A DNA stretch of 64,000 nt from Candidatus Latescibacterota bacterium. Lineage in GTDB: Bacteria; Latescibacterota; UBA2968; UBA8231. Below the pieces are notes generated by a model. The model was not told the DNA's origin, did not search any database, and saw nothing but the letters and a program-made list of their open reading frames with translations. Position 1 is the stretch's first letter; each line of letters starts with the position of its first letter. The DNA lies in NCBI GenBank assembly GCA_965248355.1, contig OZ252098.1:800001-864000 (forward strand), given 5' to 3'. Shown in pieces: positions 13,888 through 24,559 of the stretch. The translations under genes and the position numbers were made by a program.

Positions 13888-15834
13888 ATGACGCAGCATC
13901 CCCAGACAGGCGCCGGTCCGGTGCGGGCGCCGCGCACCCTGATCGTCGGCTCGGCCATGTGCGTGCTCATCGCCGCCTGGGGGCCCTACAACCTGCTCGT
14001 CCTCCACGGCTCCTGCCTGACCATCGACTTCTCCACGGGGGCGGCGATCGCCCTCCTGTTCTTCGCCGCCTTCTTCCTCAACGGCCTGCTGCGCGCCTTC
14101 CTGCCGGGGCTGTCCCTGTCCTCGGGCGAGCTCTCCATCACCTACCTGATGGCGGCCATCGCCTGCTCGATCTGCACCATGGGGCTCACCCTGCAGCTGG
14201 TGCCCCTGGTGCCGGCCCTGGACTACCTGGCCTCACCGGAGAACGAGTGGGCCCGCGACATCCTGCCCTACGTGCCCCACTGGCTGCGGCTGCCGGGGGA
14301 CGACGTGATCCTCGGCTTCTACGAGGGCCTCTCCGAGGGCGAGTCGATCCCGTGGGGGGCCTGGGCCGAGCCCCTGCTGGCGTGGATGCCCGTGATCATC
14401 GGCCTCTACCTGGTCATGATCTCCCTGGCCGTGCTCTTCAGCCGCCAGTGGATCGAGCACGAGCGTCTCGCCTACCCCCTGGCCCAGGTGCCCCTGGTCA
14501 TGGCCTCCCAGGACGAGGGCCGGGCCCTGAACGCCTTCTTCCGCAACCCGGTCATGTGGCTGGGCTTCTCCGTGCCCTTCATGGTCACCGGTATGAACGG
14601 CCTCCACTTCTACCACCACTTCGTTCCCACCCTCTACCTGAACACCCAGATCAACCTCTTCCACGACATGCCCAACCTGCTCTTCAACCTCACCTTCCCC
14701 ATGATGGGCTTCGCCTACCTGGTGCACCAGGAGGTGGCCCTGAGCATCTGGCTGTTCTACCTGGCGGGCTACGCCCTGGCCGGCGTCTTCGCCAAGGTCG
14801 GCATCACCCGCAGCCTGAGCCTGGACTACTACGCCCAGCACGACGGCGGCCCGATCTTCGCCTACATCCAGTTCGGCGCCCTCATGGCCCTGGTGGGCTA
14901 CACCCTGTGGACGGCGCGGAGCTACCTGCGCAGCACCTGGCGGTCGGCTTGGCGCCGGTCCGCCGCCTCGTCCGGGGACGACCTGTCCATGCGCGGCGTC
15001 TACGTGCAGCTGATCCTGGGGCTGGTGCTGATGACGGGATGGTTCGCCGCCGTGGGCGTCCCCCTCTGGGCGGGGGCGATCTTCGTCCTGGTGATGACGG
15101 CGACCTTCCTGGGGGTCACGCGCATCCTCTGCGAGGCCGGCCTGGCCCGGACGCGGGCCCAGTTGATCACGCCCACGGTGGTGCGCTCCATGGTCGGCAC
15201 CGCCCACCTGGGCCCGGCCGGGACGGTCGGCGTTCTGGGCTACGGGCAGGTCTGGATGAGCGACGTGCGCACCTTCGTCATGGCCGCCACCGCCAACGGC
15301 CTCAAGCTGACGTCATCGATCCGGGGCAAGGCCCTGGTCCTGGGGAGCACGGTGCTGGCGGTGGTGCTCGCCCTCGTCGCGTCGATCGGGTCGACCCTGT
15401 ACTTCGCCTACGAGAGCGGCGCCCACAACGCCAACGGCTGGTTCTTCATCCGCGCCCCCCGGTACATCATCGACTTCGCCGCCGGGTACGTGCGCGAGCC
15501 GGCGGCGGTGGACGCCGCGGGCCTGGGGCTGATGGGGCTGGGCGGCGCCGGCATGCTCGGCCTTTACTGGATCCGCGCCCACTTCATGGGCTTTCCCATC
15601 CACCCCCTGGGGCTGGCCGTCTCCCAGATGGCCCTCACCCGGCACATGTGGTTCAGCATGTTCGTCGTGTGGCTGCTGAAGGCGGTGATGATCCGCTACG
15701 GCGGCCCCCGGCTGCTGCTGCGGGTGCGGCCCTTCTTCCTGGGCTTCATCCTCGGGGAGTTCGTGGCCCTCTCCGTGTGGCTGATGATCAGCCTGGCCAC
15801 CGGGGCCCGGGGCAACAGCCTCTACAACGTCTGA
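13888..15834 (+). CDS. DUF6785/DUF6784-type polytopic membrane protein, paralog 2
   Basis: ASPENEW, QWIEHERLAYPL, RILCEAG, FPIHPLG and PFFLGFILGE motifs. Confidence 0.75.
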   Translation: MTQHPQTGAGPVRAPRTLIVGSAMCVLIAAWGPYNLLVLHGSCLTIDFSTGAAIALLFFAAFFLNGLLRAFLPGLSLSSGELSITYLMAAIACSICTMGLTLQLVPLVPALDYLASPENEWARDILPYVPHWLRLPGDDVILGFYEGLSEGESIPWGAWAEPLLAWMPVIIGLYLVMISLAVLFSRQWIEHERLAYPLAQVPLVMASQDEGRALNAFFRNPVMWLGFSVPFMVTGMNGLHFYHHFVPTLYLNTQINLFHDMPNLLFNLTFPMMGFAYLVHQEVALSIWLFYLAGYALAGVFAKVGITRSLSLDYYAQHDGGPIFAYIQFGALMALVGYTLWTARSYLRSTWRSAWRRSAASSGDDLSMRGVYVQLILGLVLMTGWFAAVGVPLWAGAIFVLVMTATFLGVTRILCEAGLARTRAQLITPTVVRSMVGTAHLGPAGTVGVLGYGQVWMSDVRTFVMAATANGLKLTSSIRGKALVLGSTVLAVVLALVASIGSTLYFAYESGAHNANGWFFIRAPRYIIDFAAGYVREPAAVDAAGLGLMGLGGAGMLGLYWIRAHFMGFPIHPLGLAVSQMALTRHMWFSMFVVWLLKAVMIRYGGPRLLLRVRPFFLGFILGEFVALSVWLMISLATGARGNSLYNV

Positions 15835-15846
15835 GCCGCGCCCCGG

Positions 15847-16593
15847 TCAGCCCTCCCGCTCCTTCTTCCAGGCCTCGTACTCGGGCCGCGCCTCCTCCGA
15901 GAGCGGGTAGTACTTCTTCAGGTGGCCGCCCTCCAGCAGCCTGAGCCGGCTGAACTCCTCCCACTCGGCGTGGGAGCCGGCCGTCTCCACCAGCTCGACG
16001 GCCAGCTTCGCCGGCACGGCCACGACCCCGTCGTCGTCGGCGACGATGATGTCCCCGGGCAGCACCAGGGTGTCGTTGAGGGCGATGGGCACGTTCACGG
16101 CGTAGGGGAAGATGCTCGTCTGGGTGTGGAAGTTCGGCGTCACTCCGCGCAGCCACAGCCCCAGGTCGAGGTCCCGCTGCACGATGGGGAAGTCGCGGAT
16201 GCAGCCGTCGACGACGACGCCGGCGCCGCCGCGGCCCTGGAAGAAGGTGAGCATCATGTTGCCGAAGACGCCGCTCTTCATGTCGCCCCGGGCGTCGACG
16301 CAGACCACGTCGCCGGGCCGCGTGTGATAGAGCACGTGCCGGTGCAGCTGCGACTCCGGGTCGGCGTACTCGTCCTGGTTGTACACGTCCTCCCGCTGGG
16401 GCATGAACTGCAGGGTCAGGGCCGGACCGACGACGCTCTTGCCGGGGGTGAAGGGAACGGGGCCGAGGACGTGGGGATCCTGGATGCCGAGACGCTTGAG
16501 CTCGCCGGCGGCGGTGGCCGAGCCGATGTCCCGGAGTCCCTCGATGATCTCCGGCGGCGGGCGTTCGATGTCGGGGGTGTGGGTCTCTGCCAT
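15847..16593 (-). CDS. RraA-like / HMG aldolase family protein
   Basis: VVGPALT, GVFGNMM, GVVVDGCIRD and PGDIIVADDDGVV motifs. Confidence 0.85.
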   Translation of the reverse strand: MAETHTPDIERPPPEIIEGLRDIGSATAAGELKRLGIQDPHVLGPVPFTPGKSVVGPALTLQFMPQREDVYNQDEYADPESQLHRHVLYHTRPGDVVCVDARGDMKSGVFGNMMLTFFQGRGGAGVVVDGCIRDFPIVQRDLDLGLWLRGVTPNFHTQTSIFPYAVNVPIALNDTLVLPGDIIVADDDGVVAVPAKLAVELVETAGSHAEWEEFSRLRLLEGGHLKKYYPLSEEARPEYEAWKKEREG

Positions 16594-16768
16594 GGTTCTC
16601 TCCTGAGAGGGGGACCGCCGTCCTCCTTCGGCGGCGGCGATTGGAGGCTCTTCCGGGCGGGAGAAGGTAGGGAAGAACCCCCAGGCGCATGGTGTCCTCC
16701 CTGGCACCGGGGCCGGTTGACGGCCCCCGCGGCATGACGTTAGCTCCCTGACCGCCTGAAGGCCCTCC

Positions 16769-18619
16769 ATGACCGAAGCCCTCCTCTTCCTCGCCGCCGC
16801 CGCCCTCCTCCTCGCCGCGTTCCTCCTTGTGCGGGGGCGGCGGGGGAGCGCCGGCCACCTCGACAGCTCCTACGACGAGTCCGAGGGTGAGCGCCGGTTG
16901 CACAAGTGGGGCTACGCCGACACCCGCTTCGAGTTCGACGGCCCCCGCAGCGTGCGCGTCACCGGCTCCCGCTACCCGCTGGCCGGGTACAGCCTGCCCT
17001 CCTTCATCCCCTTCGCCGAGGACGTCCTCGGCGTGCCGATCACGCCGGAGGAGATGGTGCCGGAGGTGGAGCGCGGCCCCCTGGCGCCGCCGCGTCCCTG
17101 CGAGGCCTTCCTCGACGCCTGCCGGCGGGGCCTCGGCGAGGGCCGCGCCGCCACCGACGACGAGTCCCGCCTGACCCACAGCCACGGCCAGCTCAGCGTC
17201 GACGAGATCTACCGCCTCCTCTACATCGGCCGCCTGCCGCGGGTGGCCGACCTGGTGCTGTTCCCCGAGAGCGAGGAGGAGGCGCGGCAGCTCGTGAGCC
17301 TCGCCGGGGAGCACGGCCTCTGCCTGGTGCCCTACGGGGGCGGGACCAACGTCAGCGGCGCCCTCTCCCTGCCGCCCGGGGAGGAGCGCCCCATCGCCTC
17401 CGTCGACATGGGCCGCATGAACCGCATCCTGTGGCTGGACGAGGAGAACCTGCAGGCCTGCGTCGAGGCCGGGATCACCGGCAAGGAGCTCGAGCGCCTC
17501 CTCGGGGAGCGCGGCTACACCTCGGGCCACGATCCGGACAGCGTCGAGTTGTCCACCCTCGGCGGCTGGATCGCCACCAACGCCAGCGGCATGAAGAAGA
17601 ACCGCTACGGCAACATCGAGGACATCGTCGTCGAGGCGACCCTGGTGACGCCGGCGGGGGAGGTGGAGTCGCGCCGGGCGACGCCGCGCAACTCCACGGG
17701 GGTGGCGCCCCGCCTGTGGCTCTTCGGCTGCGAGGGCAACCTCGGCCTGATCACCAAGGCGGTGATCAAGATCCACCCGCGGCCCGAGGCGCGGGAGTAC
17801 GGCTCCCTGGTCTTCCCCTCCCTCGGCCACGGCGTGCGCTACCTGAAGGCCCTGCGCCGGGAGGGGGCCCTGCCGGCGAGCATCCGCCTGGTGAACAACA
17901 CCGAGTTCCGCTTCGGCCAGGCCCTGAAGCCGGCGCCATCGGCCGTGGGCCGCGTCAAGGCGGCGCTGCAGCGCTTCGTCCTGGCGCGCCTGAAGGGCTT
18001 CGACCTGCGGAACCTCGCAGCCTGCACCATCGTCATGGAGGGCGGCCGCCGCGAGCTGGCCTGGCAGCGGCGGATCATCTTCTCCCTGGCCAAGGGGTTC
18101 GGCGGCGTCAGCGGCGGCGCCCACAACGGCCGGCGCGGCTACATGCTCACCTTCGCCATCGCCTACATCCGCGACTTCCTCAACCAGTTCCACATCATGG
18201 GGGAGACCTTCGAGACCTCGGTGCCGTGGGACCGCATCCACGACCTGACCGGCGCCGTGGAGCGAGAGCTGGGCGAGCAGTGCCGGAGCCACGGCGTGCG
18301 CGGGATCCCGTACCTGTCGTACCGCATCACCCAGACCTACCACACCGGGGTGTGCATCTACTTCACCATGGGCTTCAGCGGCAAGGGGCTGGAGGCGCCC
18401 GACCGCGTCTACCACGACGTGGAGGCGAGGCTGCGCCAGACGATCCTGGACCACGGCGGCTCCCTGTCCCACCACCACGGGGTCGGCAAGATCCGCGCCG
18501 CCTTCCTGCCGGAGATCCAGACCGAGGCCAGCCTGAAGATCATGCGGGAGACGAAGCGGGCCATGGATCCCGACGACGTCTTCGGCATCGCCAACGGCGC
18601 CCTGGCCGCGGACCGCTGA
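16769..18619 (+). CDS. alkyldihydroxyacetonephosphate synthase (AGPS-like FAD-linked enzyme) with an N-terminal membrane anchor
   Basis: PYGGGTNVS, GHDPDSVELSTLGGWIATNASGMKKNRYGNIED, GYMLTFAIAYIRD, GETFETSVPW, RITQTY..G.CIYF and GGSLSHHHGVGK motifs. Confidence 0.88.
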   Translation: MTEALLFLAAAALLLAAFLLVRGRRGSAGHLDSSYDESEGERRLHKWGYADTRFEFDGPRSVRVTGSRYPLAGYSLPSFIPFAEDVLGVPITPEEMVPEVERGPLAPPRPCEAFLDACRRGLGEGRAATDDESRLTHSHGQLSVDEIYRLLYIGRLPRVADLVLFPESEEEARQLVSLAGEHGLCLVPYGGGTNVSGALSLPPGEERPIASVDMGRMNRILWLDEENLQACVEAGITGKELERLLGERGYTSGHDPDSVELSTLGGWIATNASGMKKNRYGNIEDIVVEATLVTPAGEVESRRATPRNSTGVAPRLWLFGCEGNLGLITKAVIKIHPRPEAREYGSLVFPSLGHGVRYLKALRREGALPASIRLVNNTEFRFGQALKPAPSAVGRVKAALQRFVLARLKGFDLRNLAACTIVMEGGRRELAWQRRIIFSLAKGFGGVSGGAHNGRRGYMLTFAIAYIRDFLNQFHIMGETFETSVPWDRIHDLTGAVERELGEQCRSHGVRGIPYLSYRITQTYHTGVCIYFTMGFSGKGLEAPDRVYHDVEARLRQTILDHGGSLSHHHGVGKIRAAFLPEIQTEASLKIMRETKRAMDPDDVFGIANGALAADR

Positions 18620-18626
18620 GTCGCCG

Positions 18627-19478
18627 GTGCCCGGGGAACGCTCCGTCGTCATCACCGGCGCCTCCTCCGGTCTGGGAGCGGCCCTGGCGGCCGCCTTCGC
18701 CCGGGACGGCGCCCGCCTCACCCTGATGGCCCGGCGGGCGGACCGGCTGGCCGAGGTCGCCGAAGGCTGCGGCGCCGGCGTGCAGACCGTGGAGGGCGAC
18801 GTCACCGTTCCCGGCCACGGCGAGCGGCTCGTGGAGGCCGCGGTCTCCGCCCACGGCGGCATCGACTGCCTGATCGCCAACGCCGGCGTGAGCATGTGGG
18901 CGCCCTTCGAGGAGGTGAGCGACCTGTCCCTCTTCCGCCGGCTCATCGAGGTCAACTACCTCGGTGCCGTGCACTGCGTCCATCCCGCCCTGCCCCATCT
19001 GAAGACGAGCCGCGGACAGTTCGTGGCCATCTCCTCCATCCAGGGCCGCGTGGGGGTGCCCCAGCACACGGGGTACTCGGCCTCCAAGCACGCCCTGCAG
19101 GGGTTCTGCGACGCCCTGCGCATGGAGCTGGAAGGCAGCGGCGTCAACGTGCTCACCGTGGTCCTCCACTGGCTGGGGGGCACGGAGCTGCGGGAGCAGG
19201 CCTACGCCGCCGACGGCCGGCCCTTCGGCGAAGGCCGCCGCCGGGCCAGCCGGGACGCGATCGGTCTCGAGGAGACCTGCGCCGCCATCCTGGAGGCCGT
19301 GAACGAGCGCCGCCGGGAGCTCGTGATGCCCTGGAAGCTGAAGGCCCTGCTCGCCATACGCGCCCTGCGGCCCCGGCTGGCGGACGCGATCGTGCGCCGG
19401 GCCGTGAACCGCCAGGGGGGCGAGGCCCTGGGAGAGGTATCGGACCCGGACACGAGTCATGGAAAGGACCGATCGTGA
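18627..19478 (+). CDS. SDR of the DHRS7/DHRS7B-like type
   Basis: ITGASSGLG, NAGVS, EVNYLG, AISSIQG and YSASKHALQGFCDALRMEL motifs. Confidence 0.8.
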   Translation: MPGERSVVITGASSGLGAALAAAFARDGARLTLMARRADRLAEVAEGCGAGVQTVEGDVTVPGHGERLVEAAVSAHGGIDCLIANAGVSMWAPFEEVSDLSLFRRLIEVNYLGAVHCVHPALPHLKTSRGQFVAISSIQGRVGVPQHTGYSASKHALQGFCDALRMELEGSGVNVLTVVLHWLGGTELREQAYAADGRPFGEGRRRASRDAIGLEETCAAILEAVNERRRELVMPWKLKALLAIRALRPRLADAIVRRAVNRQGGEALGEVSDPDTSHGKDRS

Positions 19479-20542
19479 AGTTCGGAATGTTCATGATGCC
19501 CCTGCATCCGCCCGAGAAGGACCGCACCCGGTGCTTCGAGGAGGACATCGAGACCGTGGTCCTCGCCGACCGCCTGGGCTTCACCGAAGCCTGGATCGGC
19601 CAGCACCACTCCGTGGCCTGGGAGCCGATCCCGTCCAACGACGTCTTCATCGCCAACCTGCTGCCGAGGACGGAGCGCATCCGCCTGGGCACCGGCGTCT
19701 CCATCGTGCCCCAGCACCACCCGGTGAACATCGCCGTGCGCCTGGCCCTGCTCGACCACCTGTCGCGGGGCCGCATCAACTGCGGCTTCGGCCAGGGCGG
19801 CGTGGCCACCGACTGGGGGCTCTTCGACCTGCCCGACCCGAAGACCCAGGGCCTGATGACCCTGGAGGGCATCGACCTCGTGCTCAAGCTCTGGTCCGAG
19901 GACGCCCCCTTCGACTACAAGGGCGACCACTGGCACGTGCACCTCACCGAGCCCGTGCCGGAGCTGGGCATCGGCGTCCTCCTCAAGCCCTTCCAGAAGC
20001 CCCATCCGCCGATCGCCATGAGCGTCATCAAGGGCGATTCCATGGCCGGGCACATGGCCGGCGAGCGCGGATGGATCCCCATGAGCACGAACCTGGTGCC
20101 GGTGCCCACCGTGGCCCGCCACTGGGAGACCTACCGCGGCGGCGCCCAGGCCGCCGGCCGGCCGGAGCCCGACCGCGGCATCTGGCGCATCTCGCGCAGC
20201 CTCCTGGTGGCCGAGTCCCGGGCCCAGGCCGAGGACGTGGCCGCAGGGGCCATGCACCGGTCCTTCGAGTACCTCATCGCCGTCCTCACCTCGGTGGGCC
20301 AGCTGCCCCTGATGAAGCGCGACCCGGAGATGCCCGACGAGGAGGTGACCGCCGACTACTGCCTGCGGGAGCTGGCCATCATCGGCGACACCGCCGAGGT
20401 CACGGAGCGGCTGCGCGCCCTCTACGACGACACCGGCGGCTTCGGCACGCTGATGATGATCGCCCACGACTGGGACCACGAGGCCGTGTGGCGGGCCTCC
20501 ATGGAGCGGCTGGCGCGCGACGTCGTGCCGAGGCTGCCCTGA
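19475..20542 (+). CDS. luciferase-like (LLM) flavin-dependent monooxygenase
   Basis: KFGMFMMPLH, ADRLGFTEAWIGQHH, IRLGTGV, LDHLSRGR and KPFQKPHPP motifs; GTGA overlap with the SDR stop. Confidence 0.88.
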   Translation: MKFGMFMMPLHPPEKDRTRCFEEDIETVVLADRLGFTEAWIGQHHSVAWEPIPSNDVFIANLLPRTERIRLGTGVSIVPQHHPVNIAVRLALLDHLSRGRINCGFGQGGVATDWGLFDLPDPKTQGLMTLEGIDLVLKLWSEDAPFDYKGDHWHVHLTEPVPELGIGVLLKPFQKPHPPIAMSVIKGDSMAGHMAGERGWIPMSTNLVPVPTVARHWETYRGGAQAAGRPEPDRGIWRISRSLLVAESRAQAEDVAAGAMHRSFEYLIAVLTSVGQLPLMKRDPEMPDEEVTADYCLRELAIIGDTAEVTERLRALYDDTGGFGTLMMIAHDWDHEAVWRASMERLARDVVPRLP

Positions 20543-20624
20543 GCCGGCGATTGCCCGCATCTGCAATCGTTGGCAAGTTTCTACAACTCTCGCTCTACCT
20601 TCACCCTGTCGAATCGGATACGCC

Positions 20625-23510
20625 ATGACGCGCCGGCCATCGACCGCCCTGATCCTTCCTCTCCTCGCCGCCGCGGGTCTGGCCCTCGGCGGCTGCGCCG
20701 CCCGGCCCTCCGCGTCCGGGAACGCCGCCGGGGCGCCGGCGGCCGGCGCACCCGAATCCGTGCTGCCGGTGGACCCCAAGGTCACGCGCGGCACCCTGGA
20801 CAACGGCCTGCGCTACGTCATCCGGGCCAACGCCAAACCCGAGAACCGGGCCGAGCTGCGCCTCGCCCTCGACGTGGGCTCCATCCTGGAGACCGACGAG
20901 GAGCAGGGGCTGGCCCACTTCGCCGAGCACATGGCCTTCAACGGCACCACCCACTTCGAGAAGCAGGAGCTCTGGTCGTACCTGGAGTCCGTGGGGCTGC
21001 GCACGGGCGCCGACCTCAACGCCCACACCAGCTTCGACGAGACCGTGTACAAGCTCACCATCCCCCTCGACTCGGTGCAGGTGGTGGAGCAGGCCTTCCA
21101 GATCTTCGAGGACTGGGCCCACGGCGTCACCTTCGACGGCGAGGAGATCGACAAGGAGCGCGGCGTCGTCATCGAGGAGTGGCGCCGCGGCCAGGGCGCC
21201 GGCCTGCGCATGCTCTACAAGCAGCTGCCGGTGCTGTTCGCCGACTCGAAGTACGCCGAGCGCATTCCCATCGGGCAGAAGGCCGTCCTCGACACCTTCC
21301 ACCACGACACGGTCCACGGGTTCTACCGCCGCTGGTACCGGCCGGACCTGATGGGCTTTGCCGCCGTGGGCGACTTCGAGCCGGCCTACATGGAGAGCCT
21401 GATCGCCGAGTACCTGGGCCGCGTGCCGGCCGTGGAGGCGCCCACGGCGCGGCCGGAGGCGGCGGTGCCCGACCACGAGGAGACCCTCTTCGCCATCGTC
21501 ACCGACCCGGAGGCCACGAGCAACGTGGTGCGCATCATGCACAAGCAGGACCGGACCGACGACTCGACGAAGGGCGCCTACCGGGACCACCTGATGGAGA
21601 GCCTCTACCACGGCATGCTCAACCGGCGCCTCTACGAGCTGACGACCCGGGCCGACCCGCCCTTCCTGGGGGCGTTCTCCGGCGGCTACTACTCGGTGCG
21701 CACCAAGGAGATGATCCAGCTGGCCGCGGGCGTCGAGAACAACGGCTTCGACCGCGGCCTCGAGGCCCTGCTCACCGAGGCCGAGCGGGTCCGCCGGCAC
21801 GGCTTCACGGCCACGGAGCTGGCGCGGCAGAAGAAGGAGCTGCTGCGCGGCATGGAGCAGTCCTGGCGCGAGCGCGACAAGCTCCAGTCCCGGGGGTTCG
21901 CCGCCGAGTACGTCCGCCACCTGCTCGAGGACGAGCCGATCCCCGGCATCGAAGGGGAGTACGAGCTCTACCAGGAGCTGCTGCCGACGATCGCCCTGGC
22001 CGAGGTCAACGACCTGGCGGGGGAGTGGACGGGGGACCGCAACCGCGTCATCACCGTCAACGCTCCGGACAAGGAAGGCGTGGGCGTGCCCAGGCAGGAG
22101 CAGTTGCTGGCCATTCTCGAGGCCGCCGCCGGCAAGGAGGTGGAGGCCTACGTCGACCAGGGCGCCGACCTGCCGCTGCTGCCCGACGAGCCGCAGGCGG
22201 GGTCCGTGGCCTCGCGCGGCGAGATCCCGGAGCTCGGCGTCACCCGGTGGGAGCTGTCCAACGGCGTGCGCGTCTTCCTCAAGCCGACGGACTTCAAGAA
22301 CGACCAGATCCTGTTCGCCGCGTACAGCCCCGGCGGCCATTCCCTGGTGGAGGACGGCGAGTTCATCGCCGCCTCCACGGCCCCCGCCGCGATCACCGAG
22401 AGCGGCCTCGGGAACTTCGACAAGGTGGGCCTCATCAAGTGGCTCAGCGGCAAGGTGGTGAGCGTCGCGCCGTACGTCTCGGAGCTGGAGGAGGGGCTGT
22501 CGGGCTCGGCCTCACCCCAGGACGCGGAGACGATGTTCCAGATGATCCACGCGTACTTCACGGCCACGCGCTCCGACAGCGCCGCCTTCGCCTCCCTGCG
22601 CACGCGCCTGCGCGCCTGGCTGGAGAACCGGAGCTCCGACCCCGAGACCGCCTTCTCCGACACGGTCTCGGTGACCATGGCCCAGTACCACCACCGGGCC
22701 CGCCCCTGGTCGCTGCCGATGCTCGACGAGCTCGACCTCGACGCCTCGGTGCGCATCTTCCGCGACCGCTTCGCCGACGCTTCCGACTTCACCTTCTTCT
22801 TCGTCGGCAACTTCACCCCCGGGGAGATCGAGCCCCTGGTGAGCCGCTACCTGGCGAGCCTGCCGGCGCCGGGACGCGGGGAGACCTGGCGGGACGTGGA
22901 CATGGATCCGCCCCCGGGGGTGGTGAAGAAGGTGGTGCGCGCCGGCATGGAGCCGAAGAGCCGGACCCGCATCCTGTTCACCGGCCCCTTCGACTTCGAC
23001 GTGCGCGCCGACCGGGTGCAGCTGGGCCTGATGACCCAGGCCTTCCAGATCAAGCTGCGGGAGGTGCTGCGCGAGGATCTGGGCGGCACCTACAGCGTCG
23101 GCGTGCGCGGCTCGGTCTCCCACTACCCGGAGGAGAGCTACCTCCTCAGGGTGAGCTTCGGCAGCGATCCCGAGCGGGCCGAGGAGCTGACCGCCGTGGT
23201 CTTCGAGCAGATCGACAGCCTGCGCTCGGTCGGCCTCGACTCCACCTACGTGGAGAAGGTGAAGGAGATCCTCCGGCGGGAGCACGAGGTGGCCCTGAAG
23301 GAGAACGGCTGGTGGCTCAGCAACCTCCGCTATGCGGACACCCACGGCATCGACCCGCTGCTGATCCTCGACCGGTCCCTGGTGGAAGGGCTGACCCCGG
23401 CGGCCGTGAAGCGCATGGCCCAGCGCTTCGACACCGGCAACCACGCCCACTTCGTCATGCTCCCGGCCGAGGCGGACAGCGCCGCGGCAGAGATGGAGCA
23501 GGGGCCGTGA
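20625..23510 (+). CDS. M16-family zinc protease (PqqL-like), lipoprotein
   Basis: GLAHFAEHMAFNGT (HxxEH), NAHTSFDETVY, LREDLGGTY; lipobox LGGC. Confidence 0.92.
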   Translation: MTRRPSTALILPLLAAAGLALGGCAARPSASGNAAGAPAAGAPESVLPVDPKVTRGTLDNGLRYVIRANAKPENRAELRLALDVGSILETDEEQGLAHFAEHMAFNGTTHFEKQELWSYLESVGLRTGADLNAHTSFDETVYKLTIPLDSVQVVEQAFQIFEDWAHGVTFDGEEIDKERGVVIEEWRRGQGAGLRMLYKQLPVLFADSKYAERIPIGQKAVLDTFHHDTVHGFYRRWYRPDLMGFAAVGDFEPAYMESLIAEYLGRVPAVEAPTARPEAAVPDHEETLFAIVTDPEATSNVVRIMHKQDRTDDSTKGAYRDHLMESLYHGMLNRRLYELTTRADPPFLGAFSGGYYSVRTKEMIQLAAGVENNGFDRGLEALLTEAERVRRHGFTATELARQKKELLRGMEQSWRERDKLQSRGFAAEYVRHLLEDEPIPGIEGEYELYQELLPTIALAEVNDLAGEWTGDRNRVITVNAPDKEGVGVPRQEQLLAILEAAAGKEVEAYVDQGADLPLLPDEPQAGSVASRGEIPELGVTRWELSNGVRVFLKPTDFKNDQILFAAYSPGGHSLVEDGEFIAASTAPAAITESGLGNFDKVGLIKWLSGKVVSVAPYVSELEEGLSGSASPQDAETMFQMIHAYFTATRSDSAAFASLRTRLRAWLENRSSDPETAFSDTVSVTMAQYHHRARPWSLPMLDELDLDASVRIFRDRFADASDFTFFFVGNFTPGEIEPLVSRYLASLPAPGRGETWRDVDMDPPPGVVKKVVRAGMEPKSRTRILFTGPFDFDVRADRVQLGLMTQAFQIKLREVLREDLGGTYSVGVRGSVSHYPEESYLLRVSFGSDPERAEELTAVVFEQIDSLRSVGLDSTYVEKVKEILRREHEVALKENGWWLSNLRYADTHGIDPLLILDRSLVEGLTPAAVKRMAQRFDTGNHAHFVMLPAEADSAAAEMEQGP

Positions 23511-24559
23511 GGGTCGTCTCCCTGGAGCAGGAGGAGCTCTTCGTCAGCGGCGAGGGCGGCTGTCACACCTGCCGCATCCCGGCCCTGGCGGCGACCGCGG
23601 CGGGCACGGTGCTGGCCTTCTGCGAGGGGCGCCGCCACAGCCGCTCCGACAGCGGCCAGATGGACCTGCTCCTGCGCCGCAGCGGCGACGGCGGCCGTAC
23701 CTGGGGCCCGCCTCAGGTGGTGGTCACCGAGCCGGGCATGACCTGCGGCAACCCCTGCCCCGTGGTCGACGCCGCCACGGGCCGGGTGTGGCTGCCGTTC
23801 TGCAAGAACCTGGCCGACGGCCCGGAGAGCATGATCATCGAGGGCAAGGCGCCGCGCACGGTGTGGATCACCCACTCCGACGACGACGGGGGCAGCTGGT
23901 CCGAGCCCCGGGAGATCACGGCGCAGGTGAAGGCGCCGGACTGGACCTGGTACGCCACCGGCCCCTGCCACGGGATCCAGCTGGGCAGCGGCCGGCTGGT
24001 GGTCCCCTGCGACCACATCGTGGGTCTGCACCACGACGCCCGGCGCGATCCCTACCACTCACACGTGATCCTCTCCGACGACGGCGGCGCCACCTGGCGC
24101 ATCGGCGGCATCGTCGACGAGGGCACCAACGAGTGCTGCGTCGTGGAGACGGAGGACAACTCCCTCTACCTCAACGCCCGCAGCTACCGGGGGCGCAAGG
24201 TGCGGGCCAGCGCCCGAAGCGATGACGGCGGCGCCAGCTTCGGCCCGCGGATCTGCGAGGAGGGCCTGCCGGAGCCGGTCTGCCAGGGGAGCCTGGTGAG
24301 CCTGGGGCCGCCGGGAGGGCCGCCCACCGACCGGGCCCTGTTCGCCAATCCCGCCAGCACCGAGGCCCGGGAGAACCTCACCCTGCGGGCCACCGCCGAC
24401 GGCGGCCGCACCTGGACAGTGGTCCGCAGCTTGTACGAGGGGCCGTCGGCCTATTCCGACTTGGCGGTCACCGCCGATGGCGACGTCCTCTGTCTGTACG
24501 AGCGCGGCGCCGACCACCCGTCCGAGACCCTGACCCTGGCGCGTCTCACCCTCGGCTGA
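23507..24559 (+). CDS. exo-alpha-sialidase (GH33-like)
   Basis: RIP motif, five Asp-boxes (SxDGGxTW-like), NEC and AYS; GTGA overlap. Confidence 0.88.
   Translation: MRVVSLEQEELFVSGEGGCHTCRIPALAATAAGTVLAFCEGRRHSRSDSGQMDLLLRRSGDGGRTWGPPQVVVTEPGMTCGNPCPVVDAATGRVWLPFCKNLADGPESMIIEGKAPRTVWITHSDDDGGSWSEPREITAQVKAPDWTWYATGPCHGIQLGSGRLVVPCDHIVGLHHDARRDPYHSHVILSDDGGATWRIGGIVDEGTNECCVVETEDNSLYLNARSYRGRKVRASARSDDGGASFGPRICEEGLPEPVCQGSLVSLGPPGGPPTDRALFANPASTEARENLTLRATADGGRTWTVVRSLYEGPSAYSDLAVTADGDVLCLYERGADHPSETLTLARLTLG

What the first reader, a model, noticed from the sequence alone, without database searches (positions are those of the whole stretch)
16769..20542. Eukaryote-style ether-lipid module: alkyl-DHAP synthase, DHRS7B/PexRAP-like reductase and a flavin monooxygenase
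Seen: the first ORF carries AGPS-type motifs (SGMKKN.YGNIED, GY.LTF.IAYIRD, FETS.PW, TQTY..G.CIYF, HHHG) and an N-terminal membrane anchor. The SDR 7 nt downstream has AISSIQG...Y.ASKHA.Q.F.D.LR.E, which as I recall closely resembles DHRS7B. An LLM monooxygenase is coupled by a GTGA overlap. Known: in animals AGPS forms the ether bond and DHRS7B has been reported as the acyl/alkyl-DHAP reductase of the next step; bacterial AGPS homologues are best known from myxobacteria. Inference: two consecutive steps of alkylglycerol-ether synthesis or host ether-lipid salvage in a probable symbiont. No DHAP acyltransferase or fatty acyl-CoA reductase is in the window.
Basis: partly seen in the sequence, partly recalled or inferred. 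Interest (0 to 1): 0.75.

Follow-up and report, generated by a model that had tools for sequence, protein, structure and literature searches.

The report
Bacterial ether-lipid synthase with partner reductase
An uncultured marine bacterium carries a true copy of the animal ether-bond enzyme AGPS followed by a reductase that probably does the next step; this is a solid but modest addition to known bacterial ether-lipid genes.

Summary
Window 16769-18619 encodes a full-length alkyl-DHAP synthase (AGPS): 508 bits to guinea-pig AGPS against 82 bits for the best non-AGPS flavoenzyme, with the catalytic Tyr, Arg, Thr and HHH loop kept and an N-terminal membrane anchor. A classical SDR follows after 7 nt, and a luciferase-like monooxygenase (LLM) overlaps it by GTGA.

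The SDR lies downstream of AGPS in 71 of 77 judgeable loci, whose record titles name several phyla. In 151 genomes of the phylum it occurs only where AGPS does (103 against 109). It is therefore most likely the alkyl/acyl-DHAP reductase. Direct kinship to DHRS7B could not be tested.

The LLM is a passenger. Its orthologues sit elsewhere in most relatives, and AGPS-less genomes also have them.

De novo synthesis is likelier than salvage. The genome has an ElbD-like FAR-ACS-acyltransferase fusion and an orphan 649-aa acyltransferase (X649). In related families X649 sits in a FAR-X649-AGPS-SDR operon. PlsX, PlsY, PlsB and GpsA were not found in this genome; PlsY and GpsA were not found in any of 114 class genomes.

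AGPS homologues in Latescibacterota are already published. This scan has noted the same gene pair on other DNA several times.

The parts
16769..18619 (+). Alkyl-DHAP synthase (AGPS, EC 2.5.1.26 type), 616 aa, FAD-dependent. R373, T521, Y531 and H568-570 correspond to guinea-pig R419, T568, Y578 and H615-617.
   Evidence: Pfam FAD_binding_4 plus FAD-oxidase_C. PDB 4bby E 3.4e-151, 508 bits, query 44-609 aligned to chain 93-656; 2uuu 312 bits; the next non-AGPS hit scores 82 bits. Motif positions.
16775..16831 (+). N-terminal hydrophobic membrane anchor of AGPS (residues 3-21), followed by RGRRG.
   Evidence: Kyte-Doolittle 19-residue mean of 2.59. A similar segment (>=1.6) lies N-terminal of the WGY motif in 59 of 73 judged orthologues.
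18627..19478 (+). Classical short-chain dehydrogenase/reductase, 283 aa; candidate NADPH-dependent alkyl/acyl-DHAP reductase. TGASSGLG at 10-17, ARR at 35-37, NAG at 85-87, S137, Y150-x3-K154.
   Evidence: Pfam adh_short E 6.9e-45. NCBIfam NF004825/PRK06181 273.5 bits against a cut-off of 215. Motifs. Downstream of AGPS in 71 of 80 loci. Found only in AGPS-bearing genomes, 103 against 109 of 151.
19475..20542 (+). Luciferase-like flavin monooxygenase, 355 aa, start overlapping the SDR stop (GTGA). A neighbour, not a conserved part of the module.
   Evidence: Pfam Bac_luciferase E 2.4e-43. Best PDB hit 3,6-diketocamphane 1,6-monooxygenase at 125 bits. Follows the SDR only in L019, L025 and L068 of 80 loci and in G106, G065 and G091 of 64 family genomes; orthologues lie elsewhere in the others.

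Best explanation
The AGPS and SDR genes encode two consecutive steps of the DHAP route to 1-O-alkyl glycerolipids. AGPS is held at the membrane by an N-terminal anchor and swaps the acyl group of 1-acyl-DHAP for a fatty alcohol through its FAD. This mechanism is inferred from the conserved Tyr/Arg/Thr/HHH site of the solved animal enzyme.

The SDR then reduces the keto group of alkyl-DHAP, and probably also acyl-DHAP, to give 1-O-alkyl-glycerol-3-phosphate, probably with NADPH. That product can be acylated by a PlsC-type enzyme. The SDR's role is inferred from context, not shown.

The substrates are made by unlinked genes of the same genome. One is an ElbD-like fusion of fatty acyl-CoA reductase, acyl-CoA synthetase and acyltransferase at about 1.80 Mb. 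The other is an orphan 649-aa acyltransferase (X649) at about 3.14 Mb. In related families X649 sits inside a compact FAR-X649-AGPS-SDR operon.

The luciferase-like monooxygenase is a recent passenger and not part of the pathway. The products are probably alkyl (plasmanyl) lipids and not plasmalogens, since no PEDS1/CarF was detected; that search had no working positive control.
For: AGPS identity:
- 508 bits, E 3.4e-151, full length to guinea-pig AGPS; 312 bits to Dictyostelium AGPS; best non-AGPS hit 82 bits.
- The Y578F mutant chain 4bca marks the catalytic Tyr, which the query keeps.

Gene pair:
- The SDR orthologue lies downstream on the same strand in 71 of 80 loci (59 within 400 nt, 12 at 401-1811 nt); 6 have none and 3 cannot be judged.
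- By record title, the loci include Latescibacterota/Gemmatimonadota, Trueperaceae, Puniceicoccaceae, Phycisphaeraceae, Ectothiorhodospiraceae and Neomarinimicrobiota.

Phyletic profile in 151 genomes of the phylum:
- AGPS in 109 and the SDR in 103; every SDR-bearing genome has AGPS.
- There is exactly one SDR match at E<=1e-50 per positive genome, out of 26-86 SDR candidates.
- Both genes are missing together in four genomes of genus g11 and in G049, G054 and G102, although all of these keep X649.
- By my hand tally, 93 of 102 relatives with both genes have them within 2 kb on one strand.

Pathway context:
- FAR (NAD_binding_4 plus Sterile) lies upstream of AGPS in 34 of 80 loci.
- Between FAR and AGPS lies X649 in 29 of 80 loci, or a 258-aa PlsC-type acyltransferase in L092.
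- X649 model: pLDDT 82.8, pTM 0.87. The best fold match is PlsC 5kym (E 6.5e-4, probability 1.00), followed by PatA, plant and algal GPAT and human GPAT1.
- X649 motif: H449 is invariant in 23 of 23 sequences, and position 454 is D or E in all 23.

Own genome:
- 1403-aa FAR-Sterile-AMP-binding-acyltransferase fusion.
- X649 orthologue, 569 bits.

Literature:
- The M. xanthus operon is AGPS-FARAT-NAD epimerase, and deleting MXAN_1676 lowers ether lipids (PMC9131029 passages; PMC13012113).
Against: - There is no biochemistry for any protein here. In M. xanthus, loss of the AGPS homologue gave only a minor drop in ether lipids (PMC9131029).
- Kinship of the SDR to DHRS7B was not tested. Its profile does not single out one solved family: clavaldehyde dehydrogenase 137 bits, yeast (3R)-hydroxyacyl-CoA dehydrogenase 131, 11beta-HSD1 about 127, FabG 123.
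- Six of 77 judgeable loci lack the SDR downstream. Four genomes keep it far from AGPS (G094, G087, G078, G007).
- Six AGPS-positive genomes have no SDR match at the threshold. Two of these have a divergent AGPS of 46-48% identity, and others are fragmented.
- The acyltransferase domain of the fusion protein scores 22.8 bits, just under Pfam's 23.
- A sponge study that found agps in Latescibacterota MAGs detected no short-chain plasmalogens (preprint 10.64898/2026.06.23.733905, section 15).
- RNA-library contigs hold pieces of all three genes, but none bridges a gene junction and no silent control stretch was laid.
Confidence: 0.68

Rival explanations
1. The SDR is the general acyl-DHAP reductase of a lineage that builds all its glycerolipids through DHAP. 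X649 acylates DHAP, the SDR reduces acyl-DHAP (and alkyl-DHAP) to lysophosphatidate, and AGPS is a side branch. The pair would then be central to membrane synthesis and not a speciality.
For: The genome is one contig and 95.7% complete. It gives no match to PlsY, PlsX, PlsB or GpsA, while the control genomes ring. In the phylum sample PlsY and GpsA are each found in 0 of 114 genomes of the window's class and in 29 of 36 outside it. X649 is found in 112 of 114 class genomes and 2 of 36 outside.
Against: Four of five genus g11 genomes, and G003, have X649 but no PlsY, GpsA, AGPS or SDR orthologue; the fifth g11 genome, G081, has only a divergent AGPS of 48% identity. Of the four g11 genomes and G003 searched again at a loose threshold (G136 was not), the best SDR hit scored only 97 bits. 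So X649-dependent lipid synthesis does not need this SDR, which follows AGPS and not X649. Other routes to glycerol-3-phosphate (glycerol kinase, other dehydrogenases) were not searched.
Confidence: 0.18
2. The SDR supplies or recycles the fatty alcohol, as a fatty aldehyde reductase or alcohol dehydrogenase, and does not reduce alkyl-DHAP.
For: It is a classical SDR with no assigned function (NF004825 carries only a generic name). Many SDRs act on aldehydes and alcohols, and the best solved relative is clavaldehyde dehydrogenase.
Against: In 34 of 80 loci an alcohol-forming FAR with the Sterile domain is encoded in the same gene string, so a second alcohol-forming step would be redundant. The pathway would also be left without any reductase for alkyl-DHAP.
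Confidence: 0.08
3. This is host ether-lipid salvage by a symbiont: AGPS and the SDR rework host-derived fatty alcohols or acyl-DHAP and do not serve de novo synthesis.
For: Some relatives' record titles and three RNA runs labelled 'sponge metagenome' point to sponge-associated kin. No FAR or acyltransferase lies in the window.
Against: The 5.5-Mb genome encodes its own FAR-ACS-acyltransferase fusion and X649. Relatives carry a self-contained FAR-acyltransferase-AGPS-SDR operon. AGPS is near-universal in the class (107 of 114). [quoted passage not shown]
Confidence: 0.05
4. All three genes form one functional unit in this genus, with the LLM modifying or cleaving the ether lipid or oxidising the fatty aldehyde or alcohol.
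For: The GTGA overlap suggests translational coupling. The LLM follows the SDR in L019, L025, L068, G106, G065 and G091. Luciferase-type enzymes act on long-chain aldehydes (recalled).
Against: The LLM is absent from 76 of 80 AGPS loci, with a 60-aa remnant in L021. Orthologues of 60-77% identity sit elsewhere in 51 of 64 family genomes, including all 5 genomes of genus g11, four of which have no AGPS match. In the two other contexts examined its neighbours are PhyH-type dioxygenases, an aminotransferase and an Fe-alcohol dehydrogenase.
Confidence: 0.07

Closest known systems
Eukaryotic alkyl-DHAP synthase (AGPS/ADPS; solved structures 4bby from guinea pig and 2uuu from Dictyostelium)
   Same: Same two FAD domains and the AGPS-specific N-terminal region, aligned from query residue 44. 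Conserved R373/T521/Y531/H568-570 correspond to R419/T568/Y578/H615-617. Scores are 508 and 312 bits.
   Different: It has an N-terminal transmembrane-type anchor where the animal enzyme has a peroxisomal targeting N-terminus (the targeting signal is recalled; the anchor is). It is bacterial and encoded in a gene pair.
[quoted passage not shown]
   Same: A bacterial AGPS is followed in the same transcription direction by a Rossmann-fold reductase candidate. FAR and acyltransferase activities are encoded in the genome (PMC9131029 passages; PMC13012113 figure legend).
   Different: Here the partner is a classical SDR (adh_short, PRK06181) and not an epimerase-family protein. No FARAT lies between or beside the genes. 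FAR is part of an unlinked ElbD-like fusion, and a separate orphan acyltransferase X649 exists.
Mammalian DHRS7B/PexRAP (and DHRS7), acyl/alkyl-DHAP reductase
   Same: A classical SDR placed directly after AGPS in the pathway. It has the catalytic Ser-Tyr-Lys and an Arg-Arg after the second strand, which fits NADPH use (the NADPH rule is recalled). PMC13200781 places the DHRS7 subfamily near HSD11B1 and HSD17B4 (passage), and relatives of both are among the top solved matches.
   Different: Orthology is untested. There is no strongly hydrophobic N-terminal segment: the best 19-residue hydropathy of 1.71 covers the nucleotide-binding motif. That DHRS7B has an N-terminal anchor is recalled. The top solved match is clavaldehyde dehydrogenase.
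M. xanthus ElbD (FAR1-like, ACS, ACP and AGPAT-like domains)
   Same: The own-genome 1403-aa protein has NAD_binding_4 plus Sterile, AMP-binding and an Acyltransferase domain. Standalone elbD hits together with agps were reported in sponge Latescibacterota MAGs (preprint 10.64898/2026.06.23.733905).
   Different: No PP-binding (ACP) domain was detected in it (the genome-wide PF00550 hits lie elsewhere). The acyltransferase score is borderline at 22.8 bits. There are no elbB/C/E-like neighbours; LGT-like and OYE-like genes follow it.

Membership tests
AGPS (alkylglycerone-phosphate synthase, EC 2.5.1.26) | VAO-type FAD_binding_4 domain plus FAD-oxidase_C domain | tested here: met
   E 2.4e-37 and 3.9e-34
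AGPS (alkylglycerone-phosphate synthase, EC 2.5.1.26) | Full-length similarity to solved AGPS, well above that to glycolate oxidase or D-lactate dehydrogenase relatives | tested here: met
   508 and 312 bits to AGPS against 82 bits or less for all others. NCBIfam GlcD scores 140.6 bits against a cut-off of 567.9.
AGPS (alkylglycerone-phosphate synthase, EC 2.5.1.26) | Active-site Tyr578, Arg419, Thr568 and HHH loop 615-617 (guinea-pig numbering). Their roles are recalled from Nenci et al. 2012, which I did not read here. | tested here: met
   Y531, R373, T521 and H568-570 are aligned (alignment). The Y578F mutant chain 4bca differs from the wild type at exactly that Tyr.
AGPS (alkylglycerone-phosphate synthase, EC 2.5.1.26) | Acyl-for-alkyl exchange activity on acyl-DHAP | not testable with these tools
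   Needs an enzyme assay.
DHRS7B/PexRAP-type acyl/alkyl-DHAP reductase (EC 1.1.1.101) | Classical SDR with TGxxxGxG, NAG and catalytic Ser/Tyr-x3-Lys | tested here: met
   TGASSGLG at 10, NAG at 85, S137, YSASK at 150. S137, Y150 and K154 are invariant in 22 orthologues.
DHRS7B/PexRAP-type acyl/alkyl-DHAP reductase (EC 1.1.1.101) | Sequence orthology to DHRS7B/DHRS7 ahead of other SDR subfamilies | not testable with these tools
   No eukaryotic DHRS7B sequence could be obtained. The best 120 homologues are all bacterial and the atlas clusters are all bacterial. PDB profile hits give no clear affiliation.
DHRS7B/PexRAP-type acyl/alkyl-DHAP reductase (EC 1.1.1.101) | N-terminal membrane anchor (recalled for DHRS7B) | tested here: not met
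   The highest 19-residue hydropathy is 1.71, over residues 7-25, which hold the nucleotide-binding motif.
DHRS7B/PexRAP-type acyl/alkyl-DHAP reductase (EC 1.1.1.101) | Functional coupling to AGPS | tested here: met
   Adjacent in 71 of 77 judgeable loci. Found only in AGPS-bearing genomes and lost together with AGPS.
NCBIfam NF004825 (PRK06181) SDR family oxidoreductase | Score above the curated cut-off | tested here: met
   273.5 bits against 215. The family has no assigned function.
M. xanthus MXAN_1676-1674 type operon | [quoted passage not shown] | tested here: not met
   There is no FAR or acyltransferase in the window. The partner is adh_short and matches Pfam Epimerase only at 20.6 bits, below the cut-off.
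Luciferase-like monooxygenase (PF00296) | Pfam Bac_luciferase domain over the whole length | tested here: met
   149.1 bits, residues 1-321. No NCBIfam subfamily reaches its cut-off.

The most novel reading that the evidence does not exclude
In this whole class of Latescibacterota the textbook bacterial start of membrane-lipid synthesis (GpsA and PlsY class-wide; PlsX and PlsB also not found in this genome) is missing and replaced by an animal-peroxisome-like DHAP route. The orphan acyltransferase X649 would acylate DHAP, AGPS would convert part of it to alkyl-DHAP, and this SDR would be the first bacterial acyl/alkyl-DHAP reductase. Ether lipids would then be a main membrane component and not a speciality. 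The SDR family could be the prokaryotic sister of DHRS7/DHRS7B, which would extend the proposed bacterial origin of the eukaryotic pathway to its reductase step.
Probability: 0.2. Interest if true: 0.78.

Novelty: new member of a known kind. Interest (0 to 1): 0.45.

Why it matters
The reductase step of the bacterial AGPS route has no assigned enzyme in the papers I could search. This conserved partner SDR is a concrete candidate that can be cloned and tested.

Together with the unlinked FAR-ACS-acyltransferase fusion and the orphan acyltransferase X649, it gives a complete, oxygen-compatible route to 1-O-alkyl glycerolipids. The lineage is uncultured and is common in sponges, sediments and marine waters. 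This bears on who makes the alkyl glycerol ethers seen in such samples.

PlsY and GpsA were not found in any of the 114 class genomes searched. If that reflects true absence, it raises the question of how these bacteria start glycerolipid synthesis at all.

Tried and rejected
- **Direct comparison with DHRS7B.** The homologue search listed only bacterial SDRs in its best 120. The protein atlas returned only bacterial SDR clusters. Single-sequence and profile searches of solved structures gave a smooth score decline with no decisive affiliation.
- **PEDS1/CarF (PF10520).** No match in the own genome, but the family rang in none of the 14 control genomes, so this says nothing about absence.
- **X649 against known families.** BLASTP against the ElbD-like fusion showed no similarity. 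NCBIfam gave nothing. phmmer against PDB gave nothing at E<=1. Pfam gave nothing for the own copy, and weak PF01553 hits in 9 of 23 members, best E 0.011. Only the fold search placed it.
- **Promoter and terminator scan of 16400-20800.** 0 sites of either kind; uninformative for this phylum.
- **Genes inserted between AGPS and the SDR.** Two of the 12 loci with 401-1811-nt gaps were looked at. They held unrelated ORFs: a 197-aa ORF in L052 and a 537-aa ORF in L046. No conserved extra member was seen.
- **First GC3 filter for gene calling** in LLM-context loci was too strict and was redone.
- **RNA evidence.** Contigs of four metatranscriptome runs from two studies cover parts of AGPS, the SDR and the LLM at 93-100% likeness. 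None bridges 18619/18627 or 19475/19478, DNA carry-over cannot be excluded, and no silent control was laid. This shows neither transcription nor co-transcription.
- **Earlier notes for this place:** none.

Full report
**1. What is there**

The window is G000:C1:800001-864000 of a single-contig genome of 5.50 Mb, estimated 95.7% complete. The region has about 70% G+C. Three same-strand ORFs lie at the stated coordinates:
- 16769-18619 (616 aa);
- 18627-19478 (283 aa), 7 nt after the first stop;
- 19475-20542 (355 aa), whose GTG start shares GTGA with the preceding stop.

Pfam gives FAD_binding_4 plus FAD-oxidase_C for the first, adh_short for the second and Bac_luciferase for the third. The closest public relatives are MAGs titled Candidatus Latescibacterota or Gemmatimonadota.

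**2. The FAD enzyme is an AGPS**

Against all solved structures the best matches are:
- guinea-pig AGPS: 4bby, E 3.4e-151, 508 bits, query 44-609 on chain 93-656;
- Dictyostelium AGPS: 2uuu, 312 bits.

The best non-AGPS flavoenzymes (a putative oxidoreductase, D-lactate dehydrogenase, LctD, glycolate oxidase) reach 82 bits or less and cover only the FAD domain. NCBIfam GlcD is far below its cut-off, at 140.6 against 567.9 bits.

From the printed alignment, R373, T521, Y531 and H568-570 correspond to guinea-pig R419, T568, Y578 and H615-617. The Y578F mutant chain 4bca differs from the wild type at exactly the Tyr that the query keeps.

The genome has five other members of the FAD-oxidase superfamily at 30-33% identity, and none is a second AGPS.

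Residues 3-21 form a strongly hydrophobic segment (Kyte-Doolittle 2.59) followed by RGRRG. A comparable N-terminal segment occurs in 59 of 73 orthologues that could be judged. Of the other 7 of the 80 loci, 3 ran off a contig edge and 4 had no start codon upstream by my simple rule. The enzyme is therefore probably membrane-anchored.

**3. The SDR is tied to AGPS**

tblastn of the window's proteins against the 80 best AGPS loci from species-representative genomes gave the following (threshold 130 bits):
- an SDR orthologue of 45-88% identity downstream on the same strand in 71 loci (59 within 400 nt, 12 at 401-1811 nt);
- no SDR in the downstream flank in 6 loci (L030, L036, L039, L049, L095, L098);
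- 3 loci that end too soon to judge (L023, L073, L091; L073 shows the first 44 residues of the SDR at its contig end).

By record title the pair occurs in Latescibacterota/Gemmatimonadota MAGs and also in Trueperaceae, Puniceicoccaceae, Phycisphaeraceae, Ectothiorhodospiraceae and Neomarinimicrobiota.

In a sample of 151 genomes of the window's phylum:
- AGPS (E<=1e-60) is found in 109 and the SDR (E<=1e-50) in 103.
- All 103 SDR-bearing genomes have AGPS.
- Six have AGPS only: G081 and G107 with a divergent copy of 46-48% identity; G084 and G093, where AGPS matched only in part or in two pieces; G117; and G020.
- 42 have neither.
- Each positive genome has exactly one SDR match, although 26-86 SDR candidates per genome were seen in the first look (16 scored per genome).

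By my hand tally of the two tables, 102 relatives have both genes. In 93 they lie within 2 kb on one strand. In 4 they are far apart in the same assembly (G094, G087, G078, G007). In 5 they lie on different contigs.

Both genes are missing together in four of five genomes of genus g11 and in G049, G054 and G102. A relaxed search of four g11 genomes and G003 found only generic SDR similarity, 97 bits at best. Related genomes are not independent, so these numbers overstate statistical weight. The co-losses do, however, lie in three different families.

The SDR has TGASSGLG (10-17), NAG (85-87), S137 and Y150-x3-K154. S137, Y150 and K154 are invariant in 22 orthologues. It has Arg-Arg after the second strand, which by a recalled rule fits NADP(H). 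It passes the curated cut-off of NCBIfam NF004825/PRK06181, a family with no assigned function.

**4. The DHRS7B resemblance could not be tested**

- The homologue search listed only bacterial proteins among its best 120.
- The atlas returned only bacterial SDR clusters.
- No DHRS7-subfamily structure appeared in the listed PDB hits.

A profile of 22 AGPS-linked SDRs scores clavaldehyde dehydrogenase 137 bits, a yeast (3R)-hydroxyacyl-CoA dehydrogenase 131, many 11beta-HSD1 entries about 127 and FabG 123. A passage of PMC13200781 says the DHRS7 subfamily lies close to HSD11B1 and HSD17B4.

The SDR has no strongly hydrophobic N-terminal segment.

**5. The rest of the pathway**

In 34 of 80 loci a fatty acyl-CoA reductase (NAD_binding_4 plus Sterile) lies upstream of AGPS on the same strand. 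What lies between the two genes varies:
- In 29 of 80 loci it is a protein of about 645 aa with no Pfam family, here called X649.
- In L092 a 258-aa PlsC-type acyltransferase takes that place.

An AlphaFold model of the own-genome X649 was built from an alignment of 23 sequences (the own copy plus 22 of the 29 locus copies). It has pLDDT 82.8 and pTM 0.87. Foldseek against the PDB puts glycerolipid acyltransferases first: PlsC 5kym (E 6.5e-4, probability 1.00, target TM 0.60), then PatA, squash and algal GPAT and human GPAT1. H449 is invariant in 23 of 23 sequences, and position 454 is Asp in 14 and Glu in 9, giving an H-x4-D/E motif. Nine of the 23 members give weak PF01553 hits, best E 0.011.

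Related families thus carry FAR-X649-AGPS-SDR, which matches the four peroxisomal steps in order.

In the window's own genome these genes are dispersed:
- X649 lies at C1:3144567-3146516, among unrelated genes.
- The only FAR with a Sterile domain is the N-terminus of a 1403-aa protein at C1:1801664-1805875. This protein also has an AMP-binding domain and a borderline Acyltransferase domain (22.8 bits against a cut-off of 23). No PP-binding domain was detected in it.

That architecture resembles M. xanthus ElbD as described in PMC9131029 (FAR1-like, ACS, ACP, AGPAT-like), minus the ACP.

**6. The LLM is a passenger**

- It follows the SDR in only 3 of 80 loci (L019, L025, L068), with a 60-aa remnant in L021.
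- It follows the SDR in 3 of 64 family genomes (G106, G065, G091).
- Orthologues of 60-77% identity occur in 51 of 64 family genomes, usually far from AGPS. They occur in all five genomes of genus g11, four of which have no AGPS match.
- Two other contexts were examined. The neighbours there were PhyH-type dioxygenases, an aminotransferase, an Fe-alcohol dehydrogenase and an amidohydrolase.

Its best solved relative is 3,6-diketocamphane 1,6-monooxygenase, at 125 bits. Its substrate is unknown.

**7.

The own genome gives no match to PlsY, PlsX, PlsB or GpsA, while these families ring in 8, 9, 2 and 10 of the 14 control genomes.

In the phylum sample (excluding the window's own genome):

| Gene | Window's class (f1-f4), of 114 | Outside the class, of 36 |
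|---|---|---|
| PlsY | 0 | 29 |
| GpsA | 0 | 29 |
| X649 | 112 | 2 |
| AGPS | 107 | 1 |
| SDR | 102 | 0 |

X649 therefore looks like the class's replacement for the usual first acyltransferase. Whether it uses DHAP, glycerol-3-phosphate or both is open.

Genus g11 and G003 have X649 without PlsY, GpsA or the SDR, and without AGPS apart from one divergent copy in G081. So the SDR is not needed wherever X649 works. This ties the SDR to AGPS, and it leaves unexplained how those genomes obtain lysophosphatidate.

**8. Literature**

- PMC13012113 (abstract, passages and section 11) and PMC9131029 (passages) describe the M. xanthus AGPS-FARAT-NAD-epimerase operon. Neither mentions DHRS7B for bacteria: the term occurs 0 times in each main text.
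- PMC11868695 (passages) reports Agps homologues in 67 of 92 Latescibacterota MAGs from the Black Sea.
- Preprint 10.64898/2026.06.23.733905 (abstract and section 15) reports elbD and agps together in sponge Latescibacterota MAGs, but no short-chain plasmalogens in the lipid data.
- Five full-text searches listed no paper whose title or abstract assigns an AGPS-adjacent bacterial SDR as the acyl/alkyl-DHAP reductase. That holds only for this library. The supplementary tables of the preprint and the PNAS datasets were not seen and may list these genes.

**9. Earlier notes of this scan**

At least ten notes on other genomes describe an AGPS gene with an SDR or other reductase, or the FAR-acyltransferase-AGPS-SDR operon. 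Three of them are in Latescibacterota. These are unchecked AI notes. I reached the operon and the acyltransferase fold before reading them, and I tested the claim about missing lipid-start genes myself.

**10. Expression**

Contigs from four metatranscriptome libraries of two studies, two of them labelled sponge metagenome, match pieces of AGPS, the SDR and the LLM at 93-100% likeness. None spans a gene junction and no control stretch was laid. This is no more than a hint.

**11. Verdict**

AGPS is secure (about 0.93). The SDR as alkyl/acyl-DHAP reductase is likely (about 0.65-0.7), from context alone. The LLM should be dropped from the module. De novo synthesis is favoured over salvage.

AGPS in this phylum is already in print, and the pair has been seen repeatedly in this scan. 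The finding is therefore a new member of a known kind. A testable candidate for the unassigned bacterial reductase step is its main value.

Noticed in passing
G000:C1:3144567-3146516 (locus L100:6568-8517), outside the window: A 649-aa protein with no Pfam or NCBIfam family. Its model matches PlsC/GPAT-type acyltransferases and it has an invariant His in an H-x4-D/E motif. It is found in 112 of 114 genomes of the window's class and 2 of 36 outside, the mirror image of PlsY and GpsA (0 of 114; 29 of 36).
   Followed up: yes
whole genome G000: No match to PlsX (PF02504), PlsY (PF02660), PlsB (TIGR03703) or GpsA (PF07479) in a single-contig, 95.7%-complete genome, with positive controls ringing. 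How glycerol-3-phosphate or lysophosphatidate is made is open, above all in genus g11 and G003, which also lack the SDR and (apart from one divergent copy in G081) AGPS.
   Followed up: partly
G000:C1:1801664-1805875 (locus L018:5665-9876, minus strand), outside the window: A 1403-aa ElbD-like fusion (FAR with Sterile domain, AMP-binding, borderline acyltransferase; no ACP detected). It is followed by an LGT-like gene and an Old-Yellow-Enzyme-type flavin oxidoreductase.
   Followed up: partly
window 15847-16770 (-): An RraA/HMG-aldolase-like gene (NCBIfam PRK08245, 268.5 bits) lies divergent from AGPS. A copy lies divergently just upstream of AGPS in 9 of 80 loci (L019-L021, L023, L025, L027, L028, L047, L068) and elsewhere in the flank in 2 more (L030, L036). 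The listed ORF start overlaps the AGPS start by 2 nt, but the family match begins only at residue 69, so the true start is probably further in.
   Followed up: no
window 13888-15834 (+): A 648-aa polytopic membrane protein with DUF6785 (350 bits) plus DUF6784 and no NCBIfam family. It is conserved upstream of the RraA-like gene only in the three closest loci.
   Followed up: no
loci L107 (G142) and L109 (G092): Where the LLM orthologue sits away from AGPS, a PhyH-family dioxygenase is close by in both loci examined, directly downstream in L109. This is a possible true partner of the LLM.
   Followed up: no
window 20625-23510 (+) and about 23500-24559 (+): An M16 (insulinase-type) peptidase of 961 aa directly follows the LLM. 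After it comes an ORF whose C-terminal part reads, by eye only, like a BNR/sialidase-type protein. It was not scanned.
   Followed up: no
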